IMG/VR virus record: IMGVR_UViG_3300037851_000037
Location: 1-50,990 of that record
Strand: one strand, 5' to 3'
Source: a virus
DNA length: 50,990 bases
Below the pieces are notes generated by a model. The model was not told where the DNA came from, did not search any database, and saw only the letters and a list, made by a program, of their open reading frames with translations. Positions 1-50,990 of this stretch are shown here, piece after piece. Numbering within the stretch: the first letter of the stretch is position 1; each line of letters starts with the position of its first letter. The position numbers were made by a program, and so were the translations under genes.

Positions 1-127
1 CGACCAGGGCGACCAGGGCGACCAGTCGCCGCCCGCGCCCGCGCCCGCGAAATCCCCGAAAAAGGGGAAAAGAAAAAGGGGTTAATCGATGATACAAACG
101 AAACAGGCGTTCGCCGTTCGGGATGAA
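1..127. repeat. Terminal direct repeat, identical to 50864..50990. Indicates closure of a circular or circularly permuted genome with a unique length of 50863 bp.
   Basis: Bases 1-127 (cgaccagggcgaccagggcgaccagtcgcc ... ggatgaa) recur base for base at 50864-50990. Bases 1-85 are the 3' end of the gene at 50625..50948. Confidence 0.95.
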
Positions 128-388
128 TCGACCGGGGGAGCGTTATCCCTGGTCCTGGATACCGGACAGTTTCCTAAAACTTCCCTGGAAATTTATGTCG
201 CGTCGTCCGACGGCGCGACGTTCGACATCCTGGGATCGATGGACGGCGTTACCTATCGAAAAACCGGCGAAATGATTTTAACCGTCGCCGGGGAAAAACA
301 TTCCGGTTTCGCGAACGCGTATCGTTACGTTAAAGTCGAAACCGACGCCGTAAACGATAACGTTATCGAAATCGTCGCCGGGGGTTAA
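89..388 (+). CDS. Small head-associated protein of unknown function, possibly a decoration or carbohydrate-binding-like beta protein
   Basis: 99-aa ORF with SD-like aaaagggg 8 nt upstream of the ATG. Codon bias matches the genome. It lies just downstream of the capsid gene on the circular map. Confidence 0.7.
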   Translation: MIQTKQAFAVRDESTGGALSLVLDTGQFPKTSLEIYVASSDGATFDILGSMDGVTYRKTGEMILTVAGEKHSGFANAYRYVKVETDAVNDNVIEIVAGG

Positions 389-389
389 T

Positions 390-1898
390 ATGCCGTATCC
401 AATAGGCGGGGGAAGTATTCAAGGAATTCGCGTTTCATCGACGCCGCCGGACGACGGACAGGCGTTAATTTACGATGGAATCGCGGACGAATATATCCCC
501 CAGGATGTCGCGACCGTCGGCGGGTTAAACATCCGGGGGGACTGGGACGCGAACGCGAACAGTCCTGACCTTACCATTCTGTCCCCGCCTGTCGGGGATT
601 ACTGGTATGTAAAGGTCGCCGGAACGACGAACCTAGGCGGGATTTCGTCCTGGTCCGTCGGCGATTACGCGGTTTCCCTGGGCGGGGGTTCCTGGTTAAA
701 GATTTCCAGTCCGGGCGGCGTTATAACGGTAAACGGACAAGCGGGAATCGTTGTCCTGGACGCCGACGACGTCGGCGCGGACCCGGCGGGAACGGCGTCG
801 GCGTCGATGTCCGCCCATACTTCCGCGTTCGTCCATTCCGACATCGCCTTGAATACCGCCGCCCGACATTCCCATACGAATAAAACGGAACTGGATAAAG
901 TAACCGACGGCGACCATGATGTCCGAACGGACAATCCCCATGCGACGACCGCCGTCCAGGTCGGCGCGGACCCGACCGGGACCGCCGCCGCCGCCGTCGC
1001 CGCCCATAATGCCGCGTTCGTTCATTCCGACATCGCGTTAAATACGGCGGCGCGACATTCCCATACGAACAAGGCGGAACTGGATAAGGTTACGGACGGC
1101 GACCACGATGTCCGAACCGATAACCCCCACGCGACGACCGCCGTCCAGGTCGGCGCGGACCCGACCGGGACCGCCGCCGCCGCCGTATCCGCCCACGATT
1201 CGGCGTATGTTCATACGGACATCGCGTTAAATTCCGCCGCCCGACATTCACAGGGGACGGACCAGGGACTAGATACCGGCGGACCGAACGCCGTAACCGC
1301 GTCCCAGGCGAAACAGGGTTACACTCATTCCGGGACGACCGGGAACCCTCATTCGACGACAAAGTCGGACATCGGACTGGGGAACGTAACGGACGACGCC
1401 CAGTTAAAACGCGCCGACGGCGACATCGCGTCGTTTACCGAAAAAATGTCCGTTGTCGGGGACGACCTGTTTTTAATCGAAGATTCCGCCGCGTCGAACG
1501 CGAAAAAGAAAGTCAAGGCGTCGACATTAAGCGTCGACGGAAAAAAGCGGGTCCTGTCCTTTTCCTGGGCGGGGTCCGGTCCATATATCGGCGTAACGAC
1601 GACAACATACGCGATTGTTTCGCGTTTCCAGTTCGACGGAACGGATTTACTGGGGACGATTAAAAAAATAACCGCCCTGGTCGCGCGGTCGGCGGGCGCG
1701 TCGATGGACATCCGAATTTATGACGGAACAAACGCGAAAGTTATCGCCGAATATATTGGGATAACGTCGACGTTATTTATTATCCAGGATTTAGGGACCG
1801 TCGGAAATGTCCCGACCGGACCGGCGATTTTCGAAGTCCATTTACGGGGAACCACCGGGACAGCCGCGCGGGTCGCCGGGGTTCAAATAGACCTGTAA
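390..1898 (+). CDS. Fibre protein (head or neck fibre by position) with 63-aa tandem repeats carrying HxH motifs
   Basis: 502-aa ORF whose start lies 1 nt after the upstream TAA. It has 2.5 repeats of GADPxGTAxxAxxAHxxAFVHSDIALNTAARHSHTNKxELDKVTDGDHDVRTDNPHATTAVQV, a pattern typical of phage fibre shafts. Confidence 0.75.
   Translation: MPYPIGGGSIQGIRVSSTPPDDGQALIYDGIADEYIPQDVATVGGLNIRGDWDANANSPDLTILSPPVGDYWYVKVAGTTNLGGISSWSVGDYAVSLGGGSWLKISSPGGVITVNGQAGIVVLDADDVGADPAGTASASMSAHTSAFVHSDIALNTAARHSHTNKTELDKVTDGDHDVRTDNPHATTAVQVGADPTGTAAAAVAAHNAAFVHSDIALNTAARHSHTNKAELDKVTDGDHDVRTDNPHATTAVQVGADPTGTAAAAVSAHDSAYVHTDIALNSAARHSQGTDQGLDTGGPNAVTASQAKQGYTHSGTTGNPHSTTKSDIGLGNVTDDAQLKRADGDIASFTEKMSVVGDDLFLIEDSAASNAKKKVKASTLSVDGKKRVLSFSWAGSGPYIGVTTTTYAIVSRFQFDGTDLLGTIKKITALVARSAGASMDIRIYDGTNAKVIAEYIGITSTLFIIQDLGTVGNVPTGPAIFEVHLRGTTGTAARVAGVQIDL
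774..1250 (+). repeat. 189-bp tandem repeat (about 2.5 copies starting at 774, 963 and 1152) inside the fibre gene
   Basis: ggcgcggacccg... recurs with an exact 189-bp period. Copies differ mostly at synonymous positions. Confidence 0.9.
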
Positions 1899-1908
1899 AG
1901 GGGAAAGT

Positions 1909-2082
1909 ATGTCGACAGAATACGATTGTCGAAAAGTATGCGAAACTGAAACCGGCGACGGTAAAGGTTTCCATTTTTACCGATGGACGGATGTCGATGT
2001 TACCGACGAATCGACCCCCTGTCCCGACCATCCGACGGCGGCGACCAGGGATTTCGTTATCGAAGAAAAACGGACGACGTAA
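1909..2082 (+). CDS. Small Cys-containing protein (57 aa) of unknown function
   Basis: Not in the ORF track because it is under 60 aa. ATG at 1909 is preceded by a strong SD (taaaggggaaagtATG). Genome-typical codons. Its stop overlaps the next start (TAATG). Confidence 0.5.
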   Translation: MSTEYDCRKVCETETGDGKGFHFYRWTDVDVTDESTPCPDHPTAATRDFVIEEKRTT

Positions 2083-19657: not shown

Positions 19658-19666
19658 GGGTTAGTT

Positions 19667-22119: not shown

Positions 22120-22133
22120 ATCCGACCCCCAGG

Positions 22134-26517: not shown

Positions 26518-26530
26518 TTCCTGTCCTTTT

Positions 26531-26546: not shown

Positions 26547-26552
26547 GGATTT

Positions 26553-26834: not shown

Positions 26835-26841
26835 ATTCGCG

Positions 26842-27157: not shown

Positions 27158-27158
27158 T

Positions 27159-30463: not shown

Positions 30464-30478
30464 TACCGTTCCCCCTGG

Positions 30479-30670: not shown

Positions 30671-30682
30671 TATTATTCCCCT

Positions 30683-32194: not shown

Positions 32195-32205
32195 CGGCGA
32201 CCCCC

Positions 32206-33048: not shown

Positions 33049-33096
33049 TAACGTTTCCCTTTTCTGGTTAGATGGTCCCGTTATACCAGGACCCGG

Positions 33097-33672: not shown

Positions 33673-33698
33673 TTTCGGTTCCCCTTTTCTGTTCCTGG

Positions 33699-34037: not shown

Positions 34038-34052
34038 TTTTGAAAGCCCTTT

Positions 34053-36923: not shown

Positions 36924-36925
36924 CG

Positions 36926-37228
36926 TTAATCCCTTTTCGGTTCCAGTAACGGAATGTTCGGAAACGTTAGCGGGGGACATTTCGGACAGGCGTAAATAAA
37001 AATGTTCCCCAGGAAAAACCCGGACCAGTCGAACGGGACCATCGGTCCGACCGCGAAATCGCCCTGGATAATCGACCGGACCGCGCGGTCGCCGGAACGA
37101 CAAAGGAAACAAACGCGTTCGGCGATTGTTTCCCCGATGGTCCAGGTCGGCGGTTCATACGACAGGACATCATCGACCGCCCAGGTCGTCCCGCAAGATA
37201 AACAAGGTCGTTCGTCATTCGTCGACAT
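36926..37228 (-). CDS. Zinc-ribbon protein (about 100 aa); start uncertain (37228 or 37267)
   Basis: CLSCG, CFLC and CPKC motifs. The ATG at 37228 minimises overlap with the upstream gene. Confidence 0.5.
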   Translation of the reverse strand: MSTNDERPCLSCGTTWAVDDVLSYEPPTWTIGETIAERVCFLCRSGDRAVRSIIQGDFAVGPMVPFDWSGFFLGNIFIYACPKCPPLTFPNIPLLEPKRD

Positions 37229-41572: not shown

Positions 41573-41601
41573 ATTTTACTAAAATCGGGGGACACAAGTC
41601 A
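41573..41601 (-). promoter_or_regulatory. Sigma70-like early promoter P1: TTGACT-N17-TAAAAT
   Basis: Minus strand TTGACTtgtgtcccccgatttagTAAAAT. -35 at 41601-41596 and -10 at 41578-41573. It sits at the head of the whole leftward operon. Confidence 0.65.
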
Positions 41602-41633
41602 AGCGAAAAAATGACGCCCCACGAAAAATATTT

Positions 41634-41675
41634 TAGCGGCAAAGTCACGGCAAGTTAGCGGCAAAAATTACGGCG
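41634..41675. repeat. Four helically phased (A/C)(G/A)CGGC(A/G) repeats upstream of P1
   Basis: agcggcaa 41634, cacggcaa 41645, agcggcaa 41656 and tacggcgc 41668, with spacings of 11, 11 and 12 bp. Confidence 0.6.
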
Positions 41676-41886
41676 CGCCCTGGAAATCCCCAGGTCGACG
41701 AACCAGTGTCCGCCGGGGATGAACAACCAGGTTGCGCGGACGACGTCTGGACCCCGCGCCGGGTTACTTCCTGGACCCCTGGGGGAACAGGGGGTCGGGG
41801 ACCAGGGCGCGCCGCCCTTTACGCGTATACAGGGGGACCAGGAAACACCGCGAAAAACCGTTCCCCTGGTCTATGGTTAGACGTAT

Positions 41887-42103
41887 CTTGACATATCAGG
41901 TTCGTATCAGGTTTAAAATCCCGTAACATCCCGTTATCGTTAACGTATATCAGTGAATCACTAATATCAAAACATTATGGTAATGAAAGAAAAAATTTTT
42001 CCCCCGCGTATACGCGTAAAAAGGGCGTTTGTCTGATATACTTGAATTATTCCAACTGGTTACAAGTGATATGGACCTGATATAACCTGATATACCTGAT
42101 ATT
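41887..42103. repeat. Iteron-like arrays in the AT-rich control region: 4x ATATCA(GG), then a 12-bp palindrome, then 5x (CC)TGATAT in the opposite orientation
   Basis: ATATCA-type sites at 41892, 41904, 41946 and 41963. Palindrome cgcgtatacgcg at 42004-42015. TGATAT sites at 42033, 42066, 42077, 42087 and 42096, the last three as CCTGATATA at 9-10 bp spacing. Confidence 0.75.
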
Positions 42104-42223
42104 TTAAATTCGGGGGTCAAAGGCGGGACAAAGTATTCGGGGGGAGTATATAAAAAGGCGGCGGGGAAGTCAATAAAAAAGCGATTGACTTTAAAGAAAA
42201 AACCGCCGACAATATAACACAAG

Positions 42224-42271
42224 TCCGTCGGGGGTCCCGCCCTGGTTCCTAAAGGTCGGGGACCCCCGGCG
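42224..42271 (+). other. 14-bp-stem hairpin in the terS leader
   Basis: ccgtcgggggtccc (42224-42237) pairs with gggacccccggcgg (42258-42271), including one G-T pair, around a 20-nt loop. It ends 28 nt before the terS ATG. Confidence 0.6.
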
Positions 42272-42298
42272 GAATAACATAACTGGACGGATTACCCG

Positions 42299-42730
42299 AT
42301 GGATAAAAAAGAACAATGTCGAATTAAATTACTGGAATATTTAGGCGACCCCGAAAATGAACCCCTGTCCCGCGCCGGACTTGCGTCCCGCGTCCTGGGG
42401 TTACGAAACCGAACCGGCCTTTATCGAGTATTCACAGTCCAGGAATTGTCCGACATCGAATCGGAAGCGTTAAAGGTCCGGCGTGAACGATGCGCGCGAC
42501 ATTCGTTTTCCGTCGACCGGGCGTTACTGAAAAAGGCGACGGCGGGGGATGTCAAGGCGGCGGAACTGTATTACAAGCGGATAGAGGGATGGAACGAAAA
42601 ACAGGTCGTTTCCATCGCCCCGTCCCTGGACGAAATCCGCGCCCTTGCGGTCGCCCAGGGTTACGACCCCGACGAATTCGTCGCCGTTTACCTGGGCGTT
42701 AAATCAAAGGGTCGGGGAATTGTCGAATAA
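42299..42730 (+). CDS. terS: Terminase small subunit (HTH DNA-binding)
   Basis: 143 aa. It is the first gene of the rightward unit and lies directly upstream of terL. KATAGDVKAAELYYKRIEGWNEKQ resembles the conserved TerS motif. Confidence 0.65.
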   Translation: MDKKEQCRIKLLEYLGDPENEPLSRAGLASRVLGLRNRTGLYRVFTVQELSDIESEALKVRRERCARHSFSVDRALLKKATAGDVKAAELYYKRIEGWNEKQVVSIAPSLDEIRALAVAQGYDPDEFVAVYLGVKSKGRGIVE

Positions 42731-44066
42731 CAGTAACGCCGCCGACCTGATTCCGACGACCGGGGAACCCGACATCGCCCTGGTCGAAACCCTTTACATA
42801 ATGCGACGAAAACGCGCGGAAAGAACCCGCGCCGCGTTACTGGACCATCAAAAGGTCCCGACCGGACCCTGGTCGACCTGGGTTATTATGGCGGGTCGCG
42901 GGTCCGGGAAAACATACGCGGGCGTTAACGCGGTCGTCGAACATTTACGGGAATTCGGTCCAGACGCCTGGGTTATGATTATCGCCCCGACCGGCGACGA
43001 CGCGCGGGACGTTATTTTAGAGGGTCCGTCCGGGTTATGGACCCTGTTCCGAAACGAATTCGTTTCCTATCATCGAACCCTTTTAAAATTGAAACATATC
43101 GGCGGCGGACAGGTAAAGGTTTTTTCCGGCGACGAACCGAACCGATTACGCGGTCCCCAGTCGACCCTTTTATGGATTGATGAAATCGCAATCCAGGACG
43201 ACGAAACAATCGATAACGCCCGGTTCGGAAACCGCCTGGGACCCGACCCGAAGTTTATCGCGACGACGACCCCGAAAAAACGGGCGTCGTTAAAGTCGTT
43301 ACTAAACGAACCCGGCGTCGTCGTTACCAGGGCGACGACGGACGACAATCCCCATTTGTCCGAAAAGGCGCGCGTTCGCCTTTATGATAAATACGGCGGG
43401 ACCCGCCTGGGACGACAGGAATTAAAGGGCGAACTGATAGAGGACATCGACGGCGCGATGTTTAAATCCGCCTGGATAGACGACGCCCGCGTTTCTGTCG
43501 CGCCGGAACTGGAACGGGTCGTCGTCGCAATCGACCCGGCGGCGTCGACCCCGGCGTCGAACGGCGCGGGGAAAAAGGCGCGCCGGAAAAAGGGCGCGGA
43601 AACCGGACAGGTCGTCGCCGGTCGCGGGGTCGACGGGGATTATTACGTCCTGTTCGGCGACGGATACCGCGTAACCCCTGGGACCTGGGCGCGCAAGGCG
43701 ATTGAATTATACGACCAGTTCGGCGCGGACCATATCATCGGCGAAAAGAATAATGGCGGCGATATGGTCGAACATACCATCCGACAGGAATGGGACGACG
43801 CGCCTTTTTCGACGGTATGGGCGTCCAGGGGGAAGTCGACCAGGGCGGAACCTGTCGCGTTACTTTGCGAACAGGGTCGCGTACATTTCGTCGGCGTATT
43901 CCCCGAACTGGAAAACCAGTTATACGCGTTTCCGGTAGAGGACGAATTAAAGGACATACTGGACGCGTTCGTATGGGCGATAACGTTTTTAATGGACGAC
44001 GACGGAAACGAAACCCTTTTAATGTCAAGGTTAGGCGATGGGAAATTTAGCAATTCGGCGAACTGA
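42720..44066 (+). CDS. terL: Terminase large subunit (ATPase plus nuclease)
   Basis: Walker A IMAGRGSGKTYAG, Walker B TLLWIDEIA and nuclease Asp VVAIDPAAS. The start is proposed at TTG 42720 (SD aaagggtcgggg). The track start at 42645 would overlap terS by 86 nt, so the start is uncertain. Confidence 0.85.
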   Translation: MSNNSNAADLIPTTGEPDIALVETLYIMRRKRAERTRAALLDHQKVPTGPWSTWVIMAGRGSGKTYAGVNAVVEHLREFGPDAWVMIIAPTGDDARDVILEGPSGLWTLFRNEFVSYHRTLLKLKHIGGGQVKVFSGDEPNRLRGPQSTLLWIDEIAIQDDETIDNARFGNRLGPDPKFIATTTPKKRASLKSLLNEPGVVVTRATTDDNPHLSEKARVRLYDKYGGTRLGRQELKGELIEDIDGAMFKSAWIDDARVSVAPELERVVVAIDPAASTPASNGAGKKARRKKGAETGQVVAGRGVDGDYYVLFGDGYRVTPGTWARKAIELYDQFGADHIIGEKNNGGDMVEHTIRQEWDDAPFSTVWASRGKSTRAEPVALLCEQGRVHFVGVFPELENQLYAFPVEDELKDILDAFVWAITFLMDDDGNETLLMSRLGDGKFSNSAN

Positions 44067-45411
44067 TAAACGACCGGCGGTTCCAGGGACCGTGATAATG
44101 GGTCCGGTAAACCGCGCGTCGAACGTTATCCCGTTCCAGGAAAAGTCCGTTCCATCGTATAAACTGATTCCGTCGACCATCGCCGACCGTCCGATATATA
44201 CATCCTGGTCGACGGATGTCGCGGTCCAGTTCGGTTATAAGGCGGCGACCTGGGTTTACGCCTGTATCACGAAACGAATGAAGGCGGCGGCGTCGGTTCC
44301 CTTGAAAACCCAGGTCCAGGTCGACGGCGTATGGGTCGACCGTTACGTCCCCGGATTGTCCGATTTAATCACCCGCCCGAACAATAAATATTCGTTCCAG
44401 GATTTAACCGAAACGGTCGTTTCCCATTTAGATTTAGGGGGGAACGCCCTGTTATCGAAAGTCCGGGTCCGGGGGAAACCCGCCGAATTATGGGTTTTAC
44501 GCCCGGACAAAATTCGCCCGGTTCCGTCGACAAAGGATTACATCGGTTATTACGAATACACCGTCGACGGGAAAAAGATAAAACTGGACCCGCGCGACAT
44601 TATCCATTTTCGTTTCATCGACCCGGCGAACGAATACTGGGGGATTTCGCCGTTAATGGCGGCGGGGAAAACCGTCGATATGGAAGTCGCCGCCGTAAAC
44701 TGGAATTATTCTTCGATGAATAACCGCGCCGTCCCCGATGGTATGGTAACGTTAAAAAAGGAACTGTCGCCGAAACAGTTCGCGGAAGCGAACGCGATGT
44801 TAGAAAATCAGTTAATGGGACCGGCGAACGTCCATCGCCCGTTTGTTATGGGTTACGATGCCGATTATCGTCGGTTCGCCTTAACCCCGGCGGAAATGGA
44901 TTTCGTAAAGTCCCGCGTTTTAACCCGCGAAGAAATTTGCGCGGCGTTCGCGGTCCCGCCGCCCCTGGTCGGGATTTACGACAAGGCGACATTAACGAAC
45001 ATTGAAACCGCCCGCGTTATTTTTTGGGCGGATACGATGGTCCCGTTACTGGACGACATCCTGGACGTTTATAACTTTTGCCTGTCCCCCGAATTCGGCG
45101 CGAACGTCCGAATCGTTTACGATACGTCCGGCGTCCAGGCGTTACAAGTCCTGTTCCAGCGCAAGGTCGAAACTGGGACGAAACTGTTCGGTATGGGCGT
45201 CCCGTTCAATACAATAAACAAACGCCTGGGACTAGGGTTCGACGACATCCCCGGCGGCGATGTCGGTTACATCCCGTCGTCGATGGAACCGTCGACCGGC
45301 GGCGGCGACCTGGGGGACATCCCCGGCGGGTCCCCGCCCGGTATGGACGACGAACCCGAACCGGACGAAATCGACGAACCGGACCCCGACGACCTGGATA
45401 CCGAAGAATAA
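44038..45411 (+). CDS. Portal protein (HK97-family type)
   Basis: 457 aa. Position after terL, motifs WVYACITKRMKAAASVPL and GNALLSK...WGISPL, and an acidic C-terminus. An alternative start is at 44098. Confidence 0.8.
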   Translation: MGNLAIRRTDKRPAVPGTVIMGPVNRASNVIPFQEKSVPSYKLIPSTIADRPIYTSWSTDVAVQFGYKAATWVYACITKRMKAAASVPLKTQVQVDGVWVDRYVPGLSDLITRPNNKYSFQDLTETVVSHLDLGGNALLSKVRVRGKPAELWVLRPDKIRPVPSTKDYIGYYEYTVDGKKIKLDPRDIIHFRFIDPANEYWGISPLMAAGKTVDMEVAAVNWNYSSMNNRAVPDGMVTLKKELSPKQFAEANAMLENQLMGPANVHRPFVMGYDADYRRFALTPAEMDFVKSRVLTREEICAAFAVPPPLVGIYDKATLTNIETARVIFWADTMVPLLDDILDVYNFCLSPEFGANVRIVYDTSGVQALQVLFQRKVETGTKLFGMGVPFNTINKRLGLGFDDIPGGDVGYIPSSMEPSTGGGDLGDIPGGSPPGMDDEPEPDEIDEPDPDDLDTEE

Positions 45412-45418
45412 ATAACGG

Positions 45419-47677
45419 ATGAAACCGCGCCGTAAATTGATAACGCCGATTCCCCGCGTTTACGCGGCGGGACCGGCGGTCGTCGCCCGACGACCCGGAC
45501 TGTTCGTCGTAAAGGCGGCGGGCGATATTTACGGCGCGGGGATTACGTCCCCCCTTGCGCGCCCGACCGGAACCGGCGCGCCCCGACCGGCGCGACAGTT
45601 TCCCCAGGGTCCGTTCCCCTGGGAAAAACCCATCCCGATAAATTCCCGCGACATCGAAGTCGAATTACGGCGTTATATGGACCCGGCGGAAAAACGGGTC
45701 GCCCGCGTTTTATATTCGACCTGGAACGCCGAACGGGACGCGATTAAATACCAGGAATTACGGAACGCGGTCCGCGACGGCGACCTGGACCCCGCCTGGA
45801 TTGCGCGATGGAAAAGGGATTACGCGAATTATGTAAATACGACCCTGGACCCGGAATGGCGAAACGGATGGGTCCAGGGCGGCGACTATACCGCGAAAAA
45901 TGTCGCCCGCGCCCTGGGCGTTTCGTATGATTTTCCGAAAGTCGGAAAACGGATGGATAACTGGGTTTCCGCGCGCGGCGCGGAATTAACCGTTGATCTA
46001 TACCAGGAACAGGTCCGCGCCGTCCGTAACATCGTCCGACATTACGCCGTCGACCAGGGCGTCGGACCGAAAGTCCTGGACAAGTATATCCGTCCGGTTA
46101 TCGGTTTAACCGAACGGGAAGCGGCGGCGGTCGCGCGCCGTCGGGACCTGTTAACCATCGCCGGGTTATCCGAAAAGGAAATAACCCATCGGACGGAACA
46201 GTATTCGGGGTTCCTGTTACGGCGGCGCGCGGAACGAATCGCCCGGACGGAAACCGCGTTCGCGTATGAATACGGAACATTCGACGGAATTAAAACCGCC
46301 CAGGAACAGGGATTATTTAACGATTACATCGTAATCAAAAAATATTCGACATCGGCGGACGAACGGACCTGTCCATTTTGTTCGGAACTGGACGAACAAA
46401 CCATCGGAATCGATGAAACGTTCCCCGGCGTAACCGACAAATTACCGAACGTCCTGGTCCCGCCGGTTCATCCGAATTGTCGATGTACTGTAATTTACGA
46501 AGTCGTCCCGATGTCCCAGGTCGCGCGGAACAATGTCAAACCGGCGAAACCCCATCCGGGCGCGCCCGCGTCCCCGCCGACGACCGATGTCCCGCCGTCC
46601 GTCGACGACATCCCGCCGAATGTTACCGCGCCGCCGATTCCGACATCGACGAACCCGACGCCGAAACCGCCGACGCCCGCGCCGAAACCGATTCCCGCGC
46701 CGCCGGTAACGATTACGGTTCCGCCCGCGCCGCCGACGCCGGGGATTACGACGACCCCGCCGGAACCGATTCCACCGAAACCCAGGAAACCGCGCGCGCC
46801 GAAACCCGCCGCGCCGCCGACGGATGTCCCGCCGTCGAACGTCGTCCCGGAAAAGGGATGGTTCCCGGCGGAATCGATACCGGAAGCGCGCGCCCGCCTG
46901 GAACGACATATCGCCGACGGCGGTACGGGATACATTGGACCGTATGGAAAACCTTTTCCATATTCCCCTGGAAAGTCGTCGGTTACGTTCGAAAAGGAAA
47001 TGTCGGACGTTCGCCGCCTGGAAATGTTAAATACTATCGACGCCGAAATTACGCGATGTCGTTCCATCGGGGACGCCTGCCCGAATATTTTACAGGTTAA
47101 ATCATTGGACAATAGGGGCGCGGCGGGGATGTATTCGCCGCCGAGATTGAAATATAAAAAAGGAAAAGGGTTCGTCGTCGAAAGTCCGATAATTTCGACG
47201 AACCGCCGGTTAACCGGCGCGCCTTTGGGGACCGGCGAAAATTACGCGGCGATGTTAACGAAACGGTCGTCGATAGATGGGACCGTTCGTGACTGGGCGG
47301 CGTTACGCGTTTATGAGGAAACAAAGTTATCGACAGATTTAATCGGGTTAACAATCCGCCACGAATGGGGACATTTATATCATAGACATTGCGGTTATGA
47401 CGCCGCCGACAAGGTCGGACAGGCGTTAACGAAAGAATGGTTCGACTTTTACATTAAGCATAAAAAAGCGGGGACGTTACGTAATTACGTTTCTGAATAT
47501 GCGCGGGATACTGAGGGGGAAGCGTTCGCCGAAATGTTTACCATTTATTCGTCGCCGAAGTTCGTCCCCGGTTCCATCGATGCTGTTTTCGGACAGGGGT
47601 CGGAAAACCTAATGTCCCAGATTATTAAAAAGGGGACGGAAATCGCCCGTAAACAAATAGGGGTCCCGAAAGCATAA
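45419..47677 (+). CDS. MuF / SPP1 gp7-like head morphogenesis protein fused by a ~100-aa Pro-rich linker to a C-terminal HExxH zinc-metalloprotease-like domain
   Basis: 752 aa. MuF signature ARTETAFAYEYG...ERTCPFCSELDEQ...VPPVHPNCRCTVIY. Linker PKPPTPAPKPIPAPP.... C-terminal HEWGH (47360-47374) and, about 55 aa later, EGEAFAEMF. Confidence 0.75.
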   Translation: MKPRRKLITPIPRVYAAGPAVVARRPGLFVVKAAGDIYGAGITSPLARPTGTGAPRPARQFPQGPFPWEKPIPINSRDIEVELRRYMDPAEKRVARVLYSTWNAERDAIKYQELRNAVRDGDLDPAWIARWKRDYANYVNTTLDPEWRNGWVQGGDYTAKNVARALGVSYDFPKVGKRMDNWVSARGAELTVDLYQEQVRAVRNIVRHYAVDQGVGPKVLDKYIRPVIGLTEREAAAVARRRDLLTIAGLSEKEITHRTEQYSGFLLRRRAERIARTETAFAYEYGTFDGIKTAQEQGLFNDYIVIKKYSTSADERTCPFCSELDEQTIGIDETFPGVTDKLPNVLVPPVHPNCRCTVIYEVVPMSQVARNNVKPAKPHPGAPASPPTTDVPPSVDDIPPNVTAPPIPTSTNPTPKPPTPAPKPIPAPPVTITVPPAPPTPGITTTPPEPIPPKPRKPRAPKPAAPPTDVPPSNVVPEKGWFPAESIPEARARLERHIADGGTGYIGPYGKPFPYSPGKSSVTFEKEMSDVRRLEMLNTIDAEITRCRSIGDACPNILQVKSLDNRGAAGMYSPPRLKYKKGKGFVVESPIISTNRRLTGAPLGTGENYAAMLTKRSSIDGTVRDWAALRVYEETKLSTDLIGLTIRHEWGHLYHRHCGYDAADKVGQALTKEWFDFYIKHKKAGTLRNYVSEYARDTEGEAFAEMFTIYSSPKFVPGSIDAVFGQGSENLMSQIIKKGTEIARKQIGVPKA

Positions 47678-47901
47678 TGGAACCGTTATCGACAAAATGT
47701 CGGCGATGTAACTGGTTCATCCGGTCGCGATGGGACGACCGCCTGGAACGGTTCGTCAATTCCTGTCAAGCGTATCCCGAAACCGCCGGTAAAGAAATCC
47801 CGTATACGATTTTCCTGGAACGCGAAACCCATAACCTTGTCCGCGACGGACAGGTCGGTATTTTTACCTTTACACCGTTTATCGAATCAGGTAACATTTA
47901 A
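47677..47901 (+). CDS. Small hypothetical protein (74 aa, CxxC)
   Basis: ORF coupled by TAATG to the upstream gene. Confidence 0.55.
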   Translation: MEPLSTKCRRCNWFIRSRWDDRLERFVNSCQAYPETAGKEIPYTIFLERETHNLVRDGQVGIFTFTPFIESGNI

Positions 47902-47912
47902 CAGGGGATAAA

Positions 47913-49133
47913 ATGATGGACTTTAAAACCTTTGCCTGTCAATTCGACGTTAAGGCGGACGGCGACGGTCGGACGATAACCGGATACGCGTCGACATTCG
48001 GTCCGCCCGCCGACGCCGTCGGCGATGTCGTCGATACCGGCGCGTTCAAGAAAACGATAAAAGAGGGGGGACCCCCGAAGTCGCGTCGGATTAAACTGTT
48101 ATGGTTACATCGCGACCCCCTGGGACTTCCGACCGTTCTTAAAGAGGACGACCGGGGTTTATATTTCGAGGCGCGCGTTACGAAAACCCAGTTCGGTAAC
48201 GACTGCCTGGAATACATCCGGGACGGCGTCGTCGATAAAATGTCCATCGGATACAATACAATCCGCGCGACGAAAAACCCGGAAACGGGTTACAACCATT
48301 TAAAAGAAATCGCCCTGTTCGAAATTTCGCCGGTTCCGTTTCCGGCGAACCTTGCGACGGACATCCTGGGCGTAAAGTCGTTAATCCAGTCCGGCGCGGT
48401 TACGCCCCAGGCGTTCATTAACGCCCTGGTTTCCGCGTTCGGATTGAAACAGGACGCGGCGGGATTGTTCGTTCCCGAATCGGAAAAGGGCGCGACCCGG
48501 TTCCGCGATTTACCTTTGACGCCCCGGGACCGCGCCTGGGACGCGACCGCCGCCGACCGTCGGGTCCGCGAATGGGCGGACGCCGCCGACGGTCCGAACG
48601 AAAATTATTCCCGCGCGTTTTTCTGGTTCGATAACGAAAATCCTGAAAATTTCGGGTCGTATAAACTGGGGTTCGCCGACATCGTTAACGACGAACTGGT
48701 CGCCGTCCCCCAGGGAATCATCGCCGCCGCCGCCGCGTTACAAGGCGCGCGCGGCGGGGTCGACATCCCGGACGACGATGTCGCCGGGGTCCGCGCCCAT
48801 ATCGCCCGGTATTATGAAAAAATGTCCCGCGAATTCGACAATCCAAATATAATCCCGCCCTGGGACCGTTCCGACCCGACGGTCGCCGACCTTGCGGAAA
48901 AGGTCGACGCCCTGTCGTTACGACTGGACGCCCTGGGCGGTTCGTCGGTTTCACCTGTCCCCCAGGGCGCGCCGTCCGACCAGGACACCCGCCCGACGGA
49001 TACGCCGAAATCCGACCCGACCCCCGGCGACCCGGTCCCCGACCAGTCGCCCGAAACCGCGACAGGCGACCAGTTAAAGTCCCTGTCGGAATCAATCGAA
49101 CAATCCCTTAACCTTTTGAGAAAAGGAAACTAA
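47913..49133 (+). CDS. Prohead protease (HK97/S78 family) with a C-terminal scaffold-like extension
   Basis: 406 aa. Contains ITGYASTFGPPADAVGDVVDTGAFKKTI, LLWLHRDPLGLP and FEISPVPFPAN. The C-terminal half is acidic and helical. Confidence 0.8.
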   Translation: MMDFKTFACQFDVKADGDGRTITGYASTFGPPADAVGDVVDTGAFKKTIKEGGPPKSRRIKLLWLHRDPLGLPTVLKEDDRGLYFEARVTKTQFGNDCLEYIRDGVVDKMSIGYNTIRATKNPETGYNHLKEIALFEISPVPFPANLATDILGVKSLIQSGAVTPQAFINALVSAFGLKQDAAGLFVPESEKGATRFRDLPLTPRDRAWDATAADRRVREWADAADGPNENYSRAFFWFDNENPENFGSYKLGFADIVNDELVAVPQGIIAAAAALQGARGGVDIPDDDVAGVRAHIARYYEKMSREFDNPNIIPPWDRSDPTVADLAEKVDALSLRLDALGGSSVSPVPQGAPSDQDTRPTDTPKSDPTPGDPVPDQSPETATGDQLKSLSESIEQSLNLLRKGN

Positions 49134-49136
49134 CGT

Positions 49137-50555
49137 ATGGAACTGAAACAAGTTGTCGACCAGTTACAGGCGCAAGTCGCCGAAATGTTAAAACTGGTCC
49201 AGGACAGGGACGCCCAGTTAAAGGAAATCGGCGCGGTTCGTTCCGACCTTGCGAAGCGTATCGACGCCCAGGACGCCCGGATTATGGAACTGGTCGAACA
49301 GGCGAAAGCCGCGACCGCCCGCGCCGACGAATTAGAGAAAAAGGCGGGTCGCGTTCCGTTCGGCGGCGACGACGCCCCGAAGTCGTTCGGCGAACAGTTC
49401 ATCGGGTCCGAACAGTACAAGGAAATGGTCGCCCGTAAATCCCTGTCGTCCCATCCGTTCGAAATCAAGGGGTCGATGTTAAAGGCGATTACGTCCGACC
49501 CACTGTCGGCGGGCGCGATGGTTATCCCGATGCGCGTCCCCGAAATCATCGTTCCGCCGACCCGCGCGTTACGGTTACGCGACCTGTTAACCGTCGATTC
49601 GACCGGGTCGAACGCGGTCGAATATGTCCAGGAAATCGGGTTTTCGAACCTGTATACCATCCTGACAGCCGATGCGCTCGCCGCCGCGACGGACATCGTC
49701 GTCGAATCGGTCGCCGGACTTTATGTCGGACAGACCATTAACATCGGCGGGGAAAACCGCGTTATCGCCGCCGACGGAATCGACGAAGATACGAACACCG
49801 TAATCATCACCGTCGGGTTAACCGCCGGTAAAACCGCCGGGGACCCGGTTACGTCGAAATTCTTCGCCCCGACCGCCGAAGGGAAAACGAAACCCGAAGG
49901 GAACATCGCGTACGAACTGAAATCCGTTCCGGTTCGGACCATCGCGCACCTGATTCCGGTTTCCCGTCAAATTTTGGCGGACGCGTCCCAGTTACGGGGA
50001 CAGATTGATTCCCGTCTGATTTACGGACTGTCCCTGGTCGAGGAGGAACAAGTCCTTTACGGCGACGGGACCGGCGAAAACATCCTGGGGATTATGGCGA
50101 ACATCGCCTGTCAATCTTACAACTGGTCCCAGGGGAAAGTCGGGGATACCGTTATCGACGCGATTCGGCGCGCGATGACCCTTGCGCGTATCGCCGAATA
50201 TCCGGTCGACGGCGTCGTCGTTCATCCGACGGACTGGGAAGAAATCGAACTGACAAAGGATTCCGAATCCCGGTATATCTGGATTTCGGTTAACGACGGC
50301 GGACAGCCCCGGTTATGGCGGGTCCCGGTCGTCGATACGACCGCGATTCGGGTCGGCGAATTCCTGGTCGGCGCGTTCAAAATGGGCGCGACCCTTTACG
50401 ACCGCGAACAATCGATGATTCGGGTTTCCGATTCTCATAAAGACTTTTTCGGGAAAAACCTGCTCGCTCTGCTCGCCGAGGAACGCGCCGCCCTTGCGAC
50501 GTTCCGCCCGGAAGCGTTTGTTAAGGGCGCGTTCGACGAAGCCCCGTCCGTATAA
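49137..50555 (+). CDS. Major capsid protein (HK97 fold) with an N-terminal delta-like coiled coil
   Basis: 472 aa. N-terminal coiled coil MELKQVVDQLQAQVAEMLKLVQ..., then LRLRDLLTVDSTGSNAVEYVQE, which is typical of HK97-type MCPs. It follows the protease gene and is followed by a strong hairpin. Confidence 0.85.
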   Translation: MELKQVVDQLQAQVAEMLKLVQDRDAQLKEIGAVRSDLAKRIDAQDARIMELVEQAKAATARADELEKKAGRVPFGGDDAPKSFGEQFIGSEQYKEMVARKSLSSHPFEIKGSMLKAITSDPLSAGAMVIPMRVPEIIVPPTRALRLRDLLTVDSTGSNAVEYVQEIGFSNLYTILTADALAAATDIVVESVAGLYVGQTINIGGENRVIAADGIDEDTNTVIITVGLTAGKTAGDPVTSKFFAPTAEGKTKPEGNIAYELKSVPVRTIAHLIPVSRQILADASQLRGQIDSRLIYGLSLVEEEQVLYGDGTGENILGIMANIACQSYNWSQGKVGDTVIDAIRRAMTLARIAEYPVDGVVVHPTDWEEIELTKDSESRYIWISVNDGGQPRLWRVPVVDTTAIRVGEFLVGAFKMGATLYDREQSMIRVSDSHKDFFGKNLLALLAEERAALATFRPEAFVKGAFDEAPSV

Positions 50556-50574
50556 CATCGGTCCGCGCAATCCA

Positions 50575-50602
50575 GGCGCGGGGGGACTGTTCCCCCCGCG
50601 CC
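50575..50602 (+). terminator. Hairpin (probable terminator/attenuator) after the capsid gene
   Basis: ggcgcgggggg (50575-50585) pairs with ccccccgcgcc (50592-50602) around a 6-nt loop. It has the same G6/C6 architecture as the post-sheath hairpin. Confidence 0.55.
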
Positions 50603-50624
50603 TTAACCATAACAGGGGGACAGG

Positions 50625-50948
50625 ATGATTCGGTCAAAACAAACCAGGACATCGGCGGTCGCCGTCCGGTCGTTTACCGGAAAAGAAGGGCGATTACGTC
50701 CTGGACAGCGATTCGAAACGACCGTCGCGCGCCTGGACGAATTACGGCGCGCCGGACTTGCGCGCGCCGTAAACGAAAAAGCGGTTGCCGCGCCGTCGAA
50801 TAAAATGGTTTCGCCGCCGAAAAACAAGGCGGCGTTTTCCGTTTCGCCCGCGCCCGCGTCGTCCGACCAGGGCGACCAGGGCGACCAGTCGCCGCCCGCG
50901 CCCGCGCCCGCGAAATCCCCGAAAAAGGGGAAAAGAAAAAGGGGTTAA
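50625..50948 (+). CDS. Small basic / low-complexity protein (107 aa) downstream of the capsid gene
   Basis: SD acagggggacaggATG. The C-terminus is SSDQGDQGDQSPPAPAPAKSPKKGKRKRG. Its 3' end lies in the terminal repeat. Confidence 0.6.
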   Translation: MIRSKQTRTSAVAVRSFTGKEGRLRPGQRFETTVARLDELRRAGLARAVNEKAVAAPSNKMVSPPKNKAAFSVSPAPASSDQGDQGDQSPPAPAPAKSPKKGKRKRG

Positions 50949-50990
50949 TCGATGATACAAACGAAACAGGCGTTCGCCGTTCGGGATGAA

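What the first reader, a model, noticed from the sequence alone, without database searches (positions are those of the whole stretch)
1..50990. Extreme dinucleotide/codon regime: CpG about 2x enriched, CA/TG and AG/CT suppressed except inside CCWGG
I hand-counted dinucleotides in 5041-5340 (300 nt):
- 45 CG, about 2x what base composition predicts;
- 8 TG and ~10 CA, about 0.5x;
- 7 AG and 6 CT, about 0.35x;
- TA is not depleted.

The codons actually used are almost exactly those that lack CA, TG, AG and CT:
- Leu TTA;
- Ser TCG/TCC;
- Ala GCG/GCC;
- Pro CCG/CCC;
- Thr ACG/ACC;
- Val GTC/GTT/GTA;
- Glu GAA;
- Lys AAA;
- Arg CGN;
- stop almost always TAA.

The main exception is CTG/CAG, which largely appears embedded in CCTGG/CCAGG (for example tccctggtcctggat at 146-160). 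As a result CCWGG is several-fold over-represented. The AT-rich control region (41880-42230) does not follow the rule, so the signal is tied to coding sequence. I do not know of a described mechanism that produces this combination in a phage. It points to an unusual host translational or mutational environment, or to a DNA-level selection such as modification or defence evasion.
Basis: seen in the sequence. Interest (0 to 1): 0.7.

Follow-up and report, generated by a model that had tools for sequence, protein, structure and literature searches.

The report
Phage genome purged of short words
This is the complete genome of an uncultured tailed phage that has lost a defined set of 3- to 6-base DNA words on both strands, most likely to escape DNA-cutting host defences, and this one process explains its odd dinucleotides, codon usage, high CpG and its own tRNA.

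Summary
The core observation is real and holds genome-wide: AG/CT 0.37, CA/TG 0.48, CG 1.79, AA/TT 1.57. No 500-nt window escapes it, and 164 related phage loci never go below AG 0.59.

It is not a codon regime. It is avoidance of short words in double-stranded DNA:
- Six trinucleotide pairs sit at 0.05-0.16 of expectation: GAG/CTC, GTG/CAC, AGC/GCT, GCA/TGC, TAG/CTA, AGA/TCT.
- 45 of 64 six-base palindromes are absent or nearly so.
- 47% of 594 REBASE specificities are at no more than 10% of expectation, against 1-4% in controls.

The avoidance is equally strong in intergenic DNA, at codon junctions and on both strands. Ribosome-binding sites read AAGGGG rather than GGAGG, and Glu-[G/V/A/D/E] dipeptides are depleted.

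CpG excess is an arithmetic by-product. CCWGG is not special: 486 sites against 455 expected by Markov model.

Two metagenomic relatives use an almost AG/CT-free code but avoid different palindromes. That is the signature of restriction pressure.

Best explanation: selection against nuclease target words, pushed as far as the genetic code allows, with tRNA-Leu(UAA) compensating for forced TTA use. The agent behind the trinucleotide core is unidentified and the host is unknown.

The parts
1..50990 (.). Complete phage genome, 50,863 bp unique (positions 1-127 repeat 50864-50990). The whole genome carries the word-avoidance regime.
   Evidence: Dinucleotide, trinucleotide and palindrome statistics. 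Terminal identity. An independent Logan contig is 100% identical across the junction. Structural and replication genes of a tailed phage.
24805..24891 (-). Phage-encoded tRNA-Leu, anticodon UAA. It reads TTA, the only Leu codon free of CT and TG. TTA supplies 38% of Leu.
   Evidence: ARAGORN. Rfam RF00005, 56.9 bits. TTA 389 of 1015 Leu codons. That it compensates for forced TTA use is an inference.
40448..41236 (-). Protein with a Lar-like restriction-alleviation zinc-finger domain. Candidate active anti-restriction gene.
   Evidence: Pfam PF14354, 8e-08. PHROG 599, 4.8e-11. Function not tested.
34053..34616 (-). HNH_3 endonuclease conserved in synteny with relative L008. Candidate for the speculative self-nuclease reading only.
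   Evidence: Pfam PF13392, 1e-11. 44% identity to L008:2704-3237, with neighbouring genes at 54-61%. No specificity known.
41600..42650 (.). AT-rich divergent intergenic and regulatory region. It has the weakest bias in the genome but still follows the regime. It contains ACCTGATATA repeats.
   Evidence: AG 0.56, CA 0.72, CG 1.62. Repeats.
19200..19700 (+). 3' end of the 671-aa ORF 17642-19657 in the tail module (presumed tail fibre; no family match). GC is about 47%. It has the densest residual avoided words and may be recently acquired, less purged DNA.
42645..50555 (+). Head module: large terminase, portal, MuF-like protein, S78 protease, HK97-type capsid protein. Used to find relatives.
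   Evidence: Pfam. Relatives found.
21050..37112 (-). Replication module: PolA, two UvrD-like helicases, AEP primase, RNase T-like exonuclease, Pam3 gp32/33/34-like proteins, SNF2 helicase. No methyltransferase is present. Relative L008 has one between its gp32- and gp33-like genes.

Best explanation
**What it is.** The window is the whole genome of an uncultured tailed phage with a contractile-tail gene set. No integrase was detected.

**What has happened to it.** Its double-stranded DNA has been purged of a defined vocabulary of short words:
- six trinucleotide pairs: GAG/CTC, GTG/CAC, AGC/GCT, GCA/TGC, TAG/CTA, AGA/TCT;
- at least 16 palindromes of four or six bases: GGCC, GATC, CATG, GTAC, TGCA, AGCT, CTAG, ACCGGT, GCCGGC, TCCGGA, CCCGGG, CCGCGG, GGCGCC, GATATC, CATATG, ATTAAT;
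- a few asymmetric words.

**Most likely cause (inferred).** Long-term selection to escape sequence-specific DNA nucleases. These would be restriction-modification enzymes of a host population rich in such systems, and possibly nickases with very short recognition sites. It is passive anti-restriction by site elimination, pushed almost to the limit the genetic code allows.

**What follows from it.**
- The AG/CT and CA/TG depletion is the projection of this word avoidance onto dinucleotides.
- Apart from CG and TA, these are the dinucleotide classes that can be removed most cheaply by synonymous recoding.
- Codon usage is the means, not the cause.
- The CpG excess and part of the AA/TT excess are arithmetic consequences.
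- CCWGG merely survives in this lineage.
- The phage's tRNA-Leu(UAA) offsets the forced use of TTA (inferred).

**Shown:** the word-level, strand-symmetric, frame-independent avoidance and its lineage-specific palindrome sets.

**Inferred:** that nucleases are the selective agent, and what acts on the trinucleotide core.
For: **Word level**
- GAG/CTC and GTG/CAC are at 0.05 of expectation. They remain at 0.10-0.11 after allowing for dinucleotide content.

**Palindromes**
- Site counts: TGCA 1, GGCC 6, CATG 7, AGCT 7, GATC 9, each against 194-308 expected.
- 32 of 64 six-base palindromes are absent.
- Avoidance goes well beyond a Markov-4 expectation: ACCGGT 0 vs 31, GCCGGC 0 vs 31, TCCGGA 0 vs 39, CCGCGG 1 vs 55, GGCGCC 1 vs 45.
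- Others are abundant: GTCGAC 124, CGCGCG 133.

**REBASE specificities**
- 47% of 594 are at O/E 0.1 or less and 25% have no site. Four control phages give 1-4%.

**Acts on double-stranded DNA**
- Each word and its reverse complement are both depleted in all three frames of the sense strand.
- Non-coding DNA is equally biased.
- Synonymous-codon shuffles give 3800+-41 junction occurrences vs 1315 observed, 1134+-23 vs 153 for GAG/CTC/GTG/CAC, and 728+-19 vs 61 for seven palindromes.

**Strong enough to alter function-bearing sequence**
- Ribosome-binding sites are AAGG/AGGG/GGGG in 44 of 61 ORFs and GGAG/GAGG in 2 of 61.
- Dipeptides EG 0.19, ED 0.16, EV 0.36, EA 0.40, EE 0.46. In 117 terminase homologues the same five range 0.69-1.18.

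**Relatives**
- L008 and L011 (terminase 56-57% and capsid protein 62-63% identical) have AG/CT at 0.18-0.29.
- L008 uses an almost AG/CT-free code: Leu CTN 25 of 354, Ser AGY 9 of 247, CAG 7 of 135, GAG 7 of 305. L011 shows the same pattern.
- Their palindrome sets are the opposite of the window's: GGCC 2-3.7x, GATC 2.2-2.3x, CCWGG 0.0, GTAC 0.0, and TTCGAA 0 vs 13 (both-strand count) in L011.
- L008 carries an N6-adenine methyltransferase closest to M.MboIIA and DpnA and keeps GATC. The window lacks that gene and has purged GATC.

**By-product test**
- Fixing only AG/CT and CA/TG predicts CG 1.74, GC 0.79, CC 1.17. Observed values are 1.79, 0.73, 1.13.

**Genetic-code logic**
- The lowest O/E reachable with the same proteins is CG 0.0, AG/CT 0.10, TA 0.19, CA/TG 0.20, and 0.36 or more for every other class.

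**Other support**
- No modification gene was found.
- Site avoidance is a documented strategy of non-temperate dsDNA phages (PMC6286503).
Against: - No known restriction enzyme recognises a bare trinucleotide such as GAG, GTG or GCW in every flanking context. All 4-mers containing GAG are depleted, so the trinucleotide core needs either very many specificities or an undescribed short-specificity agent.
- REBASE recognition sequences are not enriched in AG/CT or CA/TG: odds 1.11 and 0.99, and 404 of 613 contain one obligatorily against 444+-12 by chance. Restriction in general therefore does not single out these dinucleotides.
- The host is unknown, so avoided words could not be matched to a host's restriction repertoire.
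- A context-dependent mutational process could produce part of the dinucleotide pattern.
- I could not test whether the native DNA is modified.
Confidence: 0.6

Rival explanations
1. Context-dependent mutational bias. A deaminase or a polymerase error signature would act on A or C next to particular neighbours and drive AG/CT and CA/TG towards AA/TT, CG and GG/CC. Restriction avoidance would then explain only the palindromes.
For: - All four depleted dinucleotides turn into the enriched ones (CG, GG/CC, AA/TT) by single transitions.
- The bias is present in non-coding DNA.
- It is graded across relatives: L014 is mild, with AG 0.77 and CG 1.40.
- CA/TG and AG/CT depletion occur separately in different lineages. 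L213 has CA 0.53 with AG 1.07.
Against: - Depletion is set by trinucleotide identity, not by one neighbour. In the window GAG is 0.05 but AAG 0.58 and CAG 0.70. CAG is 0.70 in the window but 0.10 in relatives, and GTG 0.05 against 0.5-0.57.
- The expected products are not consistently enriched: TA is 0.89 against 1.30 predicted, and GGG is only 1.14.
- GC3 stays at 65%.
- There is no marked strand asymmetry.
- No deaminase gene was found.
Confidence: 0.15
2. Self-immunity by avoidance. The phage lineage itself encodes a frequent-cutting nuclease, for example the conserved HNH_3 protein, that shreds host DNA at very short sites. The phage protects its own genome by not containing those sites, rather than by modifying them.
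For: - An HNH_3 endonuclease is conserved in synteny in the two extreme genomes that cover that region, at 44% identity with neighbours at 54-61%.
- It is absent from the same position in compositionally normal Pam3.
- Chloroviruses encode nickases with 2-3-nt specificity (Nt.CviQII R^AG, Nt.CviPII CCD; PMC3017599). This shows that such specificities exist. That they serve to degrade host DNA is from my own knowledge, not checked here.
Against: - HNH_3 proteins of this size are usually homing endonucleases.
- The correlation rests on two genomes.
- The recognition specificity is unknown.
- No example of self-protection by avoidance alone is known to me.
- It does not explain why the palindrome sets differ between lineages.
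Confidence: 0.08
3. Host mimicry or translational adaptation. The phage simply copies the oligonucleotide signature and codon usage of an unusual host.
For: - Phages often resemble their hosts in k-mer composition (general knowledge).
- The host is unknown, so a direct comparison was impossible.
Against: - The avoidance goes far beyond what codon usage gives.
- It is symmetric on both strands and present in non-coding DNA.
- The phage carries its own tRNA for its most unusual codon, which suggests the host supplies little of it (inference).
- Relative L008 carries the cyanobacterial HIP1 octamer at 22x expectation. To my knowledge no cyanobacterial or other bacterial genome has AG/CT odds near 0.2-0.4.
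- Cultured cyanophages Pam3, Pan1, Me-ZS1 and Nsp-JY10 are normal.
Confidence: 0.05
4. Modification-coupled design. The DNA carries a CpG-directed or other short-context modification that shields overlapping sites. CpG would then be enriched adaptively, and only the words that cannot be shielded would be purged.
For: - Nearly all tolerated palindromes either contain CG or are pure A/T: TCGA, CGCG, CCGG, GCGC, GTCGAC, TCGCGA, TTAA, AATT.
- GC survives almost only as CGC/GCG.
Against: - No methyltransferase or modification gene was found in the window.
- Several CG-containing palindromes are strongly avoided: CCGCGG, ACCGGT, GCCGGC, TCCGGA, CCCGGG, GGCGCC, CGGCCG, CGATCG.
- The CpG excess is quantitatively predicted as a by-product.
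Confidence: 0.07

Closest known systems
Restriction-site avoidance in virulent dsDNA phages (surveyed by Rusinov et al. 2018, PMC6286503)
   Same: - Short palindromic Type II sites are under-represented or absent on both strands.
- Avoidance is stronger in non-temperate phages.
- Sites are retained where the phage carries a methyltransferase (L008 keeps GATC).
- The avoided sets differ between related phages.
   Different: - Scale and word length. In the survey, complete or near-complete elimination of the sites examined was seen in about a tenth of viral genomes (abstract). The examples I know of involve one or a few sites (own knowledge).
- Here 47% of 594 known specificities are at 10% of expectation or less, and 45 of 64 six-base palindromes are gone.
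- Six trinucleotide pairs are depleted 6-20-fold whatever their flanks.
- Ribosome-binding sites and dipeptide usage are reshaped.
Chlorovirus frequent-cutter systems: Nt.CviQII (R^AG) with M.CviQII (methylates AG), Nt.CviPII (^CCD); CviJI (RGCY) from my own knowledge (PMC3017599)
   Same: - They show that nucleases with 2-3-nt specificity exist, including one aimed at AG.
- All RGCY words are avoided in the window: AGCT 0.04, GGCC 0.02, AGCC/GGCT 0.06.
- GAG is at 0.05.
   Different: - Those enzymes come from viruses of eukaryotic algae and are paired with protective methylation.
- No homologue, methyltransferase or host enzyme was identified here.
- AAG, which is also an RAG word, is only mildly depleted in the window (0.58).
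- CCD is not avoided.
- This is an analogy, not membership.
Cultured freshwater cyanophages sharing replication genes (Pseudanabaena phage Pam3 gp32-34 families; Pan1, Me-ZS1, Nsp-JY10)
   Same: - The Pam3 gp32-, gp33- and gp34-like replication-module proteins are shared.
- The DNA polymerase (Pan1, Me-ZS1) and the capsid protein (Nsp-JY10) are related at 41-46% identity.
- Relative L008 carries the cyanobacterial HIP1 motif.
   Different: All four have ordinary dinucleotide odds, AG 0.85-1.04. None is a close relative: there was no megablast hit for the first 25 kb of the window, and proteins are at most 46% identical.
CpG or UpA dinucleotide biases in viruses of eukaryotes
   Same: A genome-wide dinucleotide bias achieved mainly through synonymous codon choice and codon-junction choice.
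   Different: - The direction is opposite: CpG is enriched here.
- The level is different: double-stranded DNA symmetry, not RNA.
- The CpG excess is a by-product.

Membership tests
Anti-restriction by recognition-site avoidance | Short palindromic words under-represented relative to a model that accounts for lower-order composition | tested here: met
   Markov-corrected O/E: GGCC 0.02, GATC 0.04, CATG 0.07, GTAC 0.19. ACCGGT 0 vs 31, GCCGGC 0 vs 31, TCCGGA 0 vs 39, CCGCGG 1 vs 55, GGCGCC 1 vs 45.
Anti-restriction by recognition-site avoidance | Avoidance acts on double-stranded DNA: strand-symmetric, independent of reading frame, present in non-coding DNA | tested here: met
Anti-restriction by recognition-site avoidance | Avoided words correspond to the restriction specificities of the host | not testable with these tools
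   The host is unknown. The one genome-collection scan found only distant prophage terminases. Sample accessions are not in the literature library.
Anti-restriction by recognition-site avoidance | Avoided sets differ between related phages, and sites are kept where a cognate methyltransferase is carried | tested here: met
   GGCC, GATC, CCWGG and GTG flip between the window and L008/L011. L008 has a DpnA/MboIIA-like N6 methyltransferase and GATC at 2.3x. The window has neither. The methyltransferase's specificity is inferred only.
Anti-restriction by recognition-site avoidance | Non-temperate lifestyle | tested here: inconclusive
   No integrase or repressor domain appeared in the 41 ORFs scanned. 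Small ORFs were not all scanned.
Short-specificity nicking/modification systems of the chlorovirus type (Nt.CviQII/M.CviQII, CviJI) | A nuclease and cognate methyltransferase with 2-4-nt specificity encoded by the virus or host | tested here: not met
   No methyltransferase is present in the window. The only nuclease domains are an HNH_3 of unknown specificity, a terminase and an RNase T-like exonuclease. The host side is not testable.
Phages with modified or hypermodified DNA | Genes for base modification: methyltransferase, DpdA/Que, hydroxymethylase, glycosyl- or aminotransferases, PurZ | tested here: not met
   None was detected by Pfam or PHROGs in 41 ORFs. A DUF1937/DUF4406 nucleoside 2-deoxyribosyltransferase-like protein at 37706-38113 is the only nucleotide-metabolism oddity. 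The native DNA could not be examined.
Host-matched genome signature or translational codon adaptation | The bias is explained by codon usage and equals the host background | tested here: not met
   The first half fails: shuffles that preserve codon usage differ from the real genome by more than 35 SD on each measure. The second half is not testable because the host is unknown.

The most novel reading that the evidence does not exclude
A group of phages, probably infecting cyanobacteria, is confronted with a nuclease activity that recognises only two or three bases. It would be of the AG/CT type, with a second, separable CA/TG type. The activity could belong to the host or be deployed by the phages themselves.

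The phages' answer has been to rewrite the whole genome in an almost AG/CT-free dialect of the genetic code. This includes ribosome-binding sites, dipeptide content and a dedicated tRNA.

If so, this would reveal an undescribed class of prokaryotic ultra-short-specificity DNA defence (or offence), and the first case of immune evasion by recoding at the dinucleotide level.
Probability: 0.25. Interest if true: 0.85.

Novelty: new variant of a known kind. Interest (0 to 1): 0.68.

Why it matters
Restriction-site avoidance is usually treated as a minor and limited counter-defence. This genome and its two relatives show how far it can go.
- About half of all known restriction specificities would find almost nothing to cut.
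- The cost is paid in codon choice, ribosome-binding sites, protein dipeptides and an extra tRNA.

**What it offers**
- A natural example of genome-wide recoding under a DNA-level constraint.
- A quantitative view of which words the genetic code allows to be erased: AG/CT, CA/TG, CG and TA.
- A testable pointer to nucleases with very short recognition sites in an uncultured host.

**A practical consequence.** k-mer-based host prediction and gene callers that rely on GGAGG-type ribosome-binding sites will probably mis-handle such phages (my inference).

Tried and rejected
**Searches for relatives, host or precedent**
- Megablast of the first 25 kb against 50,697 phage records: no hit.
- tblastn with PolA, capsid, sheath and the gp32- and gp34-like proteins: only distant relatives, at most 46% identical.
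- IMG/VR scans with the capsid protein and a terminase alignment: no member of the extreme group.
- JGI metagenome scan with a capsid alignment: 29 relatives, all of ordinary composition.
- Genome-collection scan: only distant prophage terminases, so no host.
- Literature search for the sample accessions: nothing.
- Literature searches for a described AG/CT or CpG regime in phages: nothing specific.

**Ideas rejected**
- CCWGG as a selected motif. It fits its Markov expectation and is absent from relatives.
- CpG enrichment as primary. The proportional-fitting test accounts for it.
- RNA-level explanations such as toxin endoribonuclease sites or avoidance of Shine-Dalgarno-like sequences. Reverse complements are equally depleted.
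- UV-dimer avoidance. TT is enriched.
- DarT (TNTC) avoidance. TTTC is 3x enriched.
- PAM avoidance for the common CRISPR types. GTH, TTC, CC/GG and TTTV are all abundant.
- REBASE sites being intrinsically rich in AG/CT or CA/TG. They are not.
- Amino-acid composition as the main lever. The shifts are only modest: C, Q and W lower, K, F and D higher, about 2 SD each.

Full report
**1. What the window is**

Positions 1-127 are identical to 50864-50990. A Logan contig from run SRR12687606 is 100% identical across that junction. The window is therefore a complete phage genome of 50,863 bp, circular or terminally redundant.

It encodes:
- a T4-type large terminase, portal, MuF-like protein, S78 protease and HK97-fold capsid protein;
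- a contractile-tail set: DUF3383 sheath, tape-measure protein, baseplate J;
- an endolysin;
- a replication module with PolA, two UvrD-like helicases, an AEP primase, an SNF2 helicase, an RNase T-like exonuclease, an HNH_3 endonuclease and Pam3 gp32/33/34-like proteins;
- a Lar-like restriction-alleviation protein.

No integrase, methyltransferase or base-modification gene was detected. One tRNA is present, tRNA-Leu(UAA), at 24805-24891 on the minus strand.

There is no close cultured relative. Megablast of the first 25 kb found nothing, and the best protein identities are 40-46%.

**2. Checking the observation**

The hand counts are accurate: in 5041-5340 I find CG 46, TG 8, CA 10, AG 7, CT 6.

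Genome-wide symmetrised odds are AG/CT 0.37, CA/TG 0.48, GC 0.73, TA 0.89, AA/TT 1.57 and CG 1.79. In sliding 500-nt windows AG never exceeds 0.64, CA never exceeds 0.75 and CG never drops below 1.26. Among 164 phage and prophage loci with a related terminase the lowest AG is 0.59 and the median 0.92. The genome is a gross outlier.

Codon usage is as described:
- GAA 628, GAG 37;
- GTG 3 of 1050 Val;
- CAT 146, CAC 16;
- Ser AGY 47 of 798;
- Arg AGR 56 of 850;
- stops TAA 49, TGA 10, TAG 2;
- Leu split evenly between TTA (389) and CTG (390).

**3. The signal is a DNA word signal, not a codon signal**

*Non-coding DNA.* The 2.9 kb not covered by ORFs of 60 aa or more has AG 0.44, CA 0.52, CG 1.53 and GAG 0.05. 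These values are essentially the coding values.

*Codon junctions.* At the boundary between position 3 and the next position 1, the odds are AG 0.28, CT 0.25, CA 0.35, TG 0.37.

*Shuffle test.* I made 200 shuffles of synonymous codons that keep every protein and the overall codon usage.

| Measure | Shuffles | Observed |
|---|---|---|
| Junction AG/CT/CA/TG | 3800 +- 41 | 1315 |
| GAG/CTC/GTG/CAC | 1134 +- 23 | 153 |
| Seven 4-base palindromes | 728 +- 19 | 61 |

*Strands.* Each avoided word and its reverse complement are both rare in every frame of the sense strand. This excludes RNA-level explanations.

**4. The real units**

Six trinucleotide pairs carry most of the effect.

| Trinucleotide pair | O/E |
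|---|---|
| GAG/CTC | 0.05 |
| GTG/CAC | 0.05 |
| AGC/GCT | 0.09 |
| GCA/TGC | 0.12 |
| CTA/TAG | 0.14 |
| AGA/TCT | 0.16 |

GAG and GTG remain about ten-fold depleted after correcting for dinucleotides. CAG/CTG is about four-fold enriched on the same basis. All flanking contexts of GAG, TAG, AGA/AGC, CAC and GCA are depleted. AG survives mainly as M-AG-K.

On top of this there is clear palindrome avoidance:
- Site counts are TGCA 1, GGCC 6, CATG 7, AGCT 7, GATC 9, CTAG 16, GTAC 21, against 194-308 expected.
- 32 of 64 six-base palindromes are absent and 13 more nearly so.
- Several are missing even though their 5-mers are common: ACCGGT 0 vs 31, GCCGGC 0 vs 31, TCCGGA 0 vs 39, CCCGGG 2 vs 42, CCGCGG 1 vs 55, GGCGCC 1 vs 45, GATATC 0 vs 12, CATATG 0 vs 9, ATTAAT 1 vs 13.
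- Others are abundant: GTCGAC 124, CGCGCG 133, GCGCGC 101, TCGCGA 55, GTTAAC 49, TTTAAA 44, GAATTC 40.

Using the REBASE list shipped with Biopython, I took the 594 distinct specificities with at least 5 expected sites.

| Sequence | O/E 0.1 or less | No site |
|---|---|---|
| Window | 47% | 25% |
| Four control phage sequences | 1-4% | 0-4% |
| Mono-shuffle of the window | 0% | 0% |

**5. CCWGG and CpG**

CCWGG has 486 sites. That is 3.6 times the base-composition expectation but only 1.07 times the Markov-3 expectation of 455. Of all CAG/CTG, 86% lie in M-CWG-K and 40% in CCWGG. CCWGG is simply what remains once GCW, WGC, AGM and KAG are removed.

I fitted a maximum-entropy dinucleotide table that fixes only AG/CT and CA/TG at their observed values and keeps base composition.

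| Dinucleotide | Predicted | Observed |
|---|---|---|
| CG | 1.74 | 1.79 |
| GC | 0.79 | 0.73 |
| CC/GG | 1.17 | 1.13 |
| AA/TT | 1.34 | 1.57 |

The CpG excess is therefore a by-product, and about half of the AA/TT excess is too.

**6. The constraint reaches functional sequence**
- Ribosome-binding sites are AAGG/AGGG/GGGG in 44 of 61 ORFs. Canonical GGAG/GAGG occurs in 2 of 61.
- Glu codons followed by a G-initial codon necessarily create AG. The dipeptides EG, ED, EV, EA and EE stand at 0.19, 0.16, 0.36, 0.40 and 0.46 of expectation. In 117 terminase homologues the same five range 0.69-1.18.
- Overall amino-acid shifts are modest and in the expected direction: C, Q and W lower, K, F and D higher.
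- TTA is the only Leu codon free of CT and TG. It supplies 38% of Leu, and the phage carries the matching tRNA. That the tRNA compensates is an inference.

**7. Relatives**

The nearest terminases (56-57% identity; capsid protein 62-63%) lie on ENA and Logan contigs L008-L010 and JGI contig L011.

They share:
- the core regime: AG/CT 0.15-0.29, CG 1.7, AA/TT 1.55-1.59, GAG 0.07-0.09, AGC 0.10-0.16, GCA 0.14-0.21, CTA 0.06-0.20;
- an almost AG/CT-free code. L008 has Leu CTN 25 of 354, Ser AGY 9 of 247, Arg AGR 13 of 334, CAG 7 of 135, GAG 7 of 305;
- depletion of all [E/K/Q][G/V/A/D/E] dipeptides, at 0.21-0.67;
- the same AAGG/AGGG ribosome-binding sites.

They differ sharply in specifics.

| Word | Window | L008 / L011 |
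|---|---|---|
| GGCC | 0.02 | 3.7 / 2.1 |
| GATC | 0.05 | 2.3 / 2.2 |
| CCWGG | 3.6 | 0.02 / 0.00 |
| CAG/CTG | 0.70 | 0.10 / 0.12 |
| GTG/CAC | 0.05 | 0.57 / 0.50 |

The relatives also avoid other palindromes: GTAC, GCGC, GGATCC and GTCGAC in L008, and TTCGAA in L011.

L008 carries an N6-adenine methyltransferase closest to M.MboIIA and DpnA, inserted between its gp32- and gp33-like genes. The window has no gene there.

L008 also holds the cyanobacterial HIP1 octamer GCGATCGC at 22 times expectation. This is the only host clue, and it applies to the relative, not directly to the window.

Other sequences:
- A more distant relative from the same sample, L014, is mildly biased: AG 0.77, CG 1.40.
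- L213 (terminase 52% identical, only 3.3 kb) has CA/TG 0.53 with AG 1.07, so the two depletions are separable.
- Other terminase and capsid relatives are ordinary, as are the cultured cyanophages Pam3, Pan1, Me-ZS1 and Nsp-JY10.

**8. Why these dinucleotides**

I used dynamic programming over synonymous codons for the window's own proteins. The lowest reachable O/E is 0.0 for CG, 0.10 for AG/CT, 0.19 for TA and 0.20 for CA/TG. It is 0.36 or more for every other class.

AG/CT is the only non-self-complementary class that can be removed from within codons without changing any amino acid: Ser, Arg and Leu have alternative boxes, and NAG and NCT have synonyms. The genome stands at 0.36 for AG/CT and 0.48 for CA/TG. 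L008 stands at 0.17 for AG/CT against a floor of 0.07.

CG cannot be lowered at the same time, because Arg, Ser and the NCN third positions must go somewhere. Any strong pressure to lose many different DNA words will therefore collect in exactly these dinucleotides.

The pressure itself is not biased towards them. REBASE sites are not enriched in AG/CT or CA/TG.

**9. Mechanism**

The palindrome component is classic recognition-site avoidance, a documented strategy of non-temperate dsDNA phages (PMC6286503). Three features are what restriction pressure predicts:
- the avoided sets differ between lineages;
- GATC is present where a methyltransferase is present and purged where it is absent;
- the genome has no modification genes.

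The trinucleotide core is not explained by any known restriction specificity. GAG, TAG, AGC, GCA and AGA are shared by all three lineages, GTG is specific to the window, and CAG is specific to the relatives.

The nearest precedents for such short specificity are chlorovirus enzymes: Nt.CviQII (R^AG, with M.CviQII methylating AG) and Nt.CviPII (CCD), both cited in PMC3017599, and CviJI (RGCY) from my own knowledge. All RGCY words are indeed avoided here. This is an analogy only.

I therefore commit to selection against nuclease target words as the cause, at about 0.6 overall. Confidence is high for the palindromes and moderate for the trinucleotides. The rivals are:
- a context-dependent mutational bias (0.15);
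- self-immunity to a phage-encoded frequent cutter such as the conserved HNH_3 protein (0.08);
- a modification-coupled design (0.07);
- host mimicry (0.05).

**10. Novelty and limits**

Site avoidance is known. The following, as far as I can find in the literature searched, are not described:
- avoidance at trinucleotide or dinucleotide resolution;
- near-invisibility to half of all known specificities;
- an almost AG/CT-free coding dialect;
- rewritten ribosome-binding sites and dipeptide-level distortion.

I rate it a new variant of a known kind.

Limits: the host is unknown, the state of the native DNA is unknown, the extreme group has only three lineages (two of them partial contigs), L213 is short, and my ORF set is mechanical.

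Noticed in passing
window 1-127 and 50864-50990: The two ends are identical, so the window is a complete genome of 50,863 bp, circular or terminally redundant. Logan contig L007 (SRR12687606) spans the junction at 100% identity.
   Followed up: yes
window, 20 nt upstream of 61 ORF starts; also L008: Ribosome-binding sites are AAGGGG-like in 44 of 61 ORFs. Canonical GGAG/GAGG occurs in 2 of 61. Relative L008 shows the same pattern (21 of 28 against 2). The Shine-Dalgarno sequence appears rewritten to avoid GAG, presumably pairing through a G-U wobble.
   Followed up: partly
window 41600-42700: AT-rich divergent region between the early (minus-strand) and head (plus-strand) modules. It has three tandem ACCTGATATA copies at 42075-42103, inverted copies at 41884-41916, and GGGGACCAGG repeats at 41797-41851. 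It could be an origin or an operator region.
   Followed up: partly
window 19200-19700 and 8000-10000: The 3' end of the presumed tail-fibre gene (ORF 17642-19657, GC about 47%) and the tape-measure gene carry the highest density of residual avoided words. The fibre end may be recently exchanged DNA that is not yet purged.
   Followed up: no
L213 (JGI 3300027865, 3.3 kb, terminase 52% identical): CA/TG is depleted (0.53; GTG 0.25, GCA 0.27) while AG/CT is normal (1.07; GAG 1.85). The two depletions combined in the window occur separately elsewhere.
   Followed up: partly
L008 1336-2067 (-): An N6-adenine methyltransferase closest to M.MboIIA and DpnA sits between the gp32- and gp33-like genes. 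L008 keeps GATC at 2.3x and GGCC at 3.7x, and carries HIP1 (GCGATCGC) at 22x. The window lacks the gene and has purged GATC and GGCC.
   Followed up: partly
window 34053-34616 (-): An HNH_3 endonuclease is conserved in synteny with L008 at 44% identity, with neighbouring genes at 54-61%. It is absent from the equivalent position in compositionally normal phage Pam3. Its specificity is unknown.
   Followed up: partly
window 761-971 and 950-1160, inside ORF 390-1898: An imperfect internal repeat of about 190 nt (85% identity) lies in a 502-aa protein with weak PHROG matches to tail and virion structural proteins. It probably reflects repeated domains.
   Followed up: no
window 24934-26556 (-) and 27159-28658 (-): Two separate UvrD/Rep-type helicase genes lie 600 bp apart in the replication module.
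   Followed up: no
window 37706-38113 (-): A DUF1937/DUF4406 protein resembling a nucleoside 2-deoxyribosyltransferase. It is the only gene hinting at unusual nucleotide metabolism.
   Followed up: no
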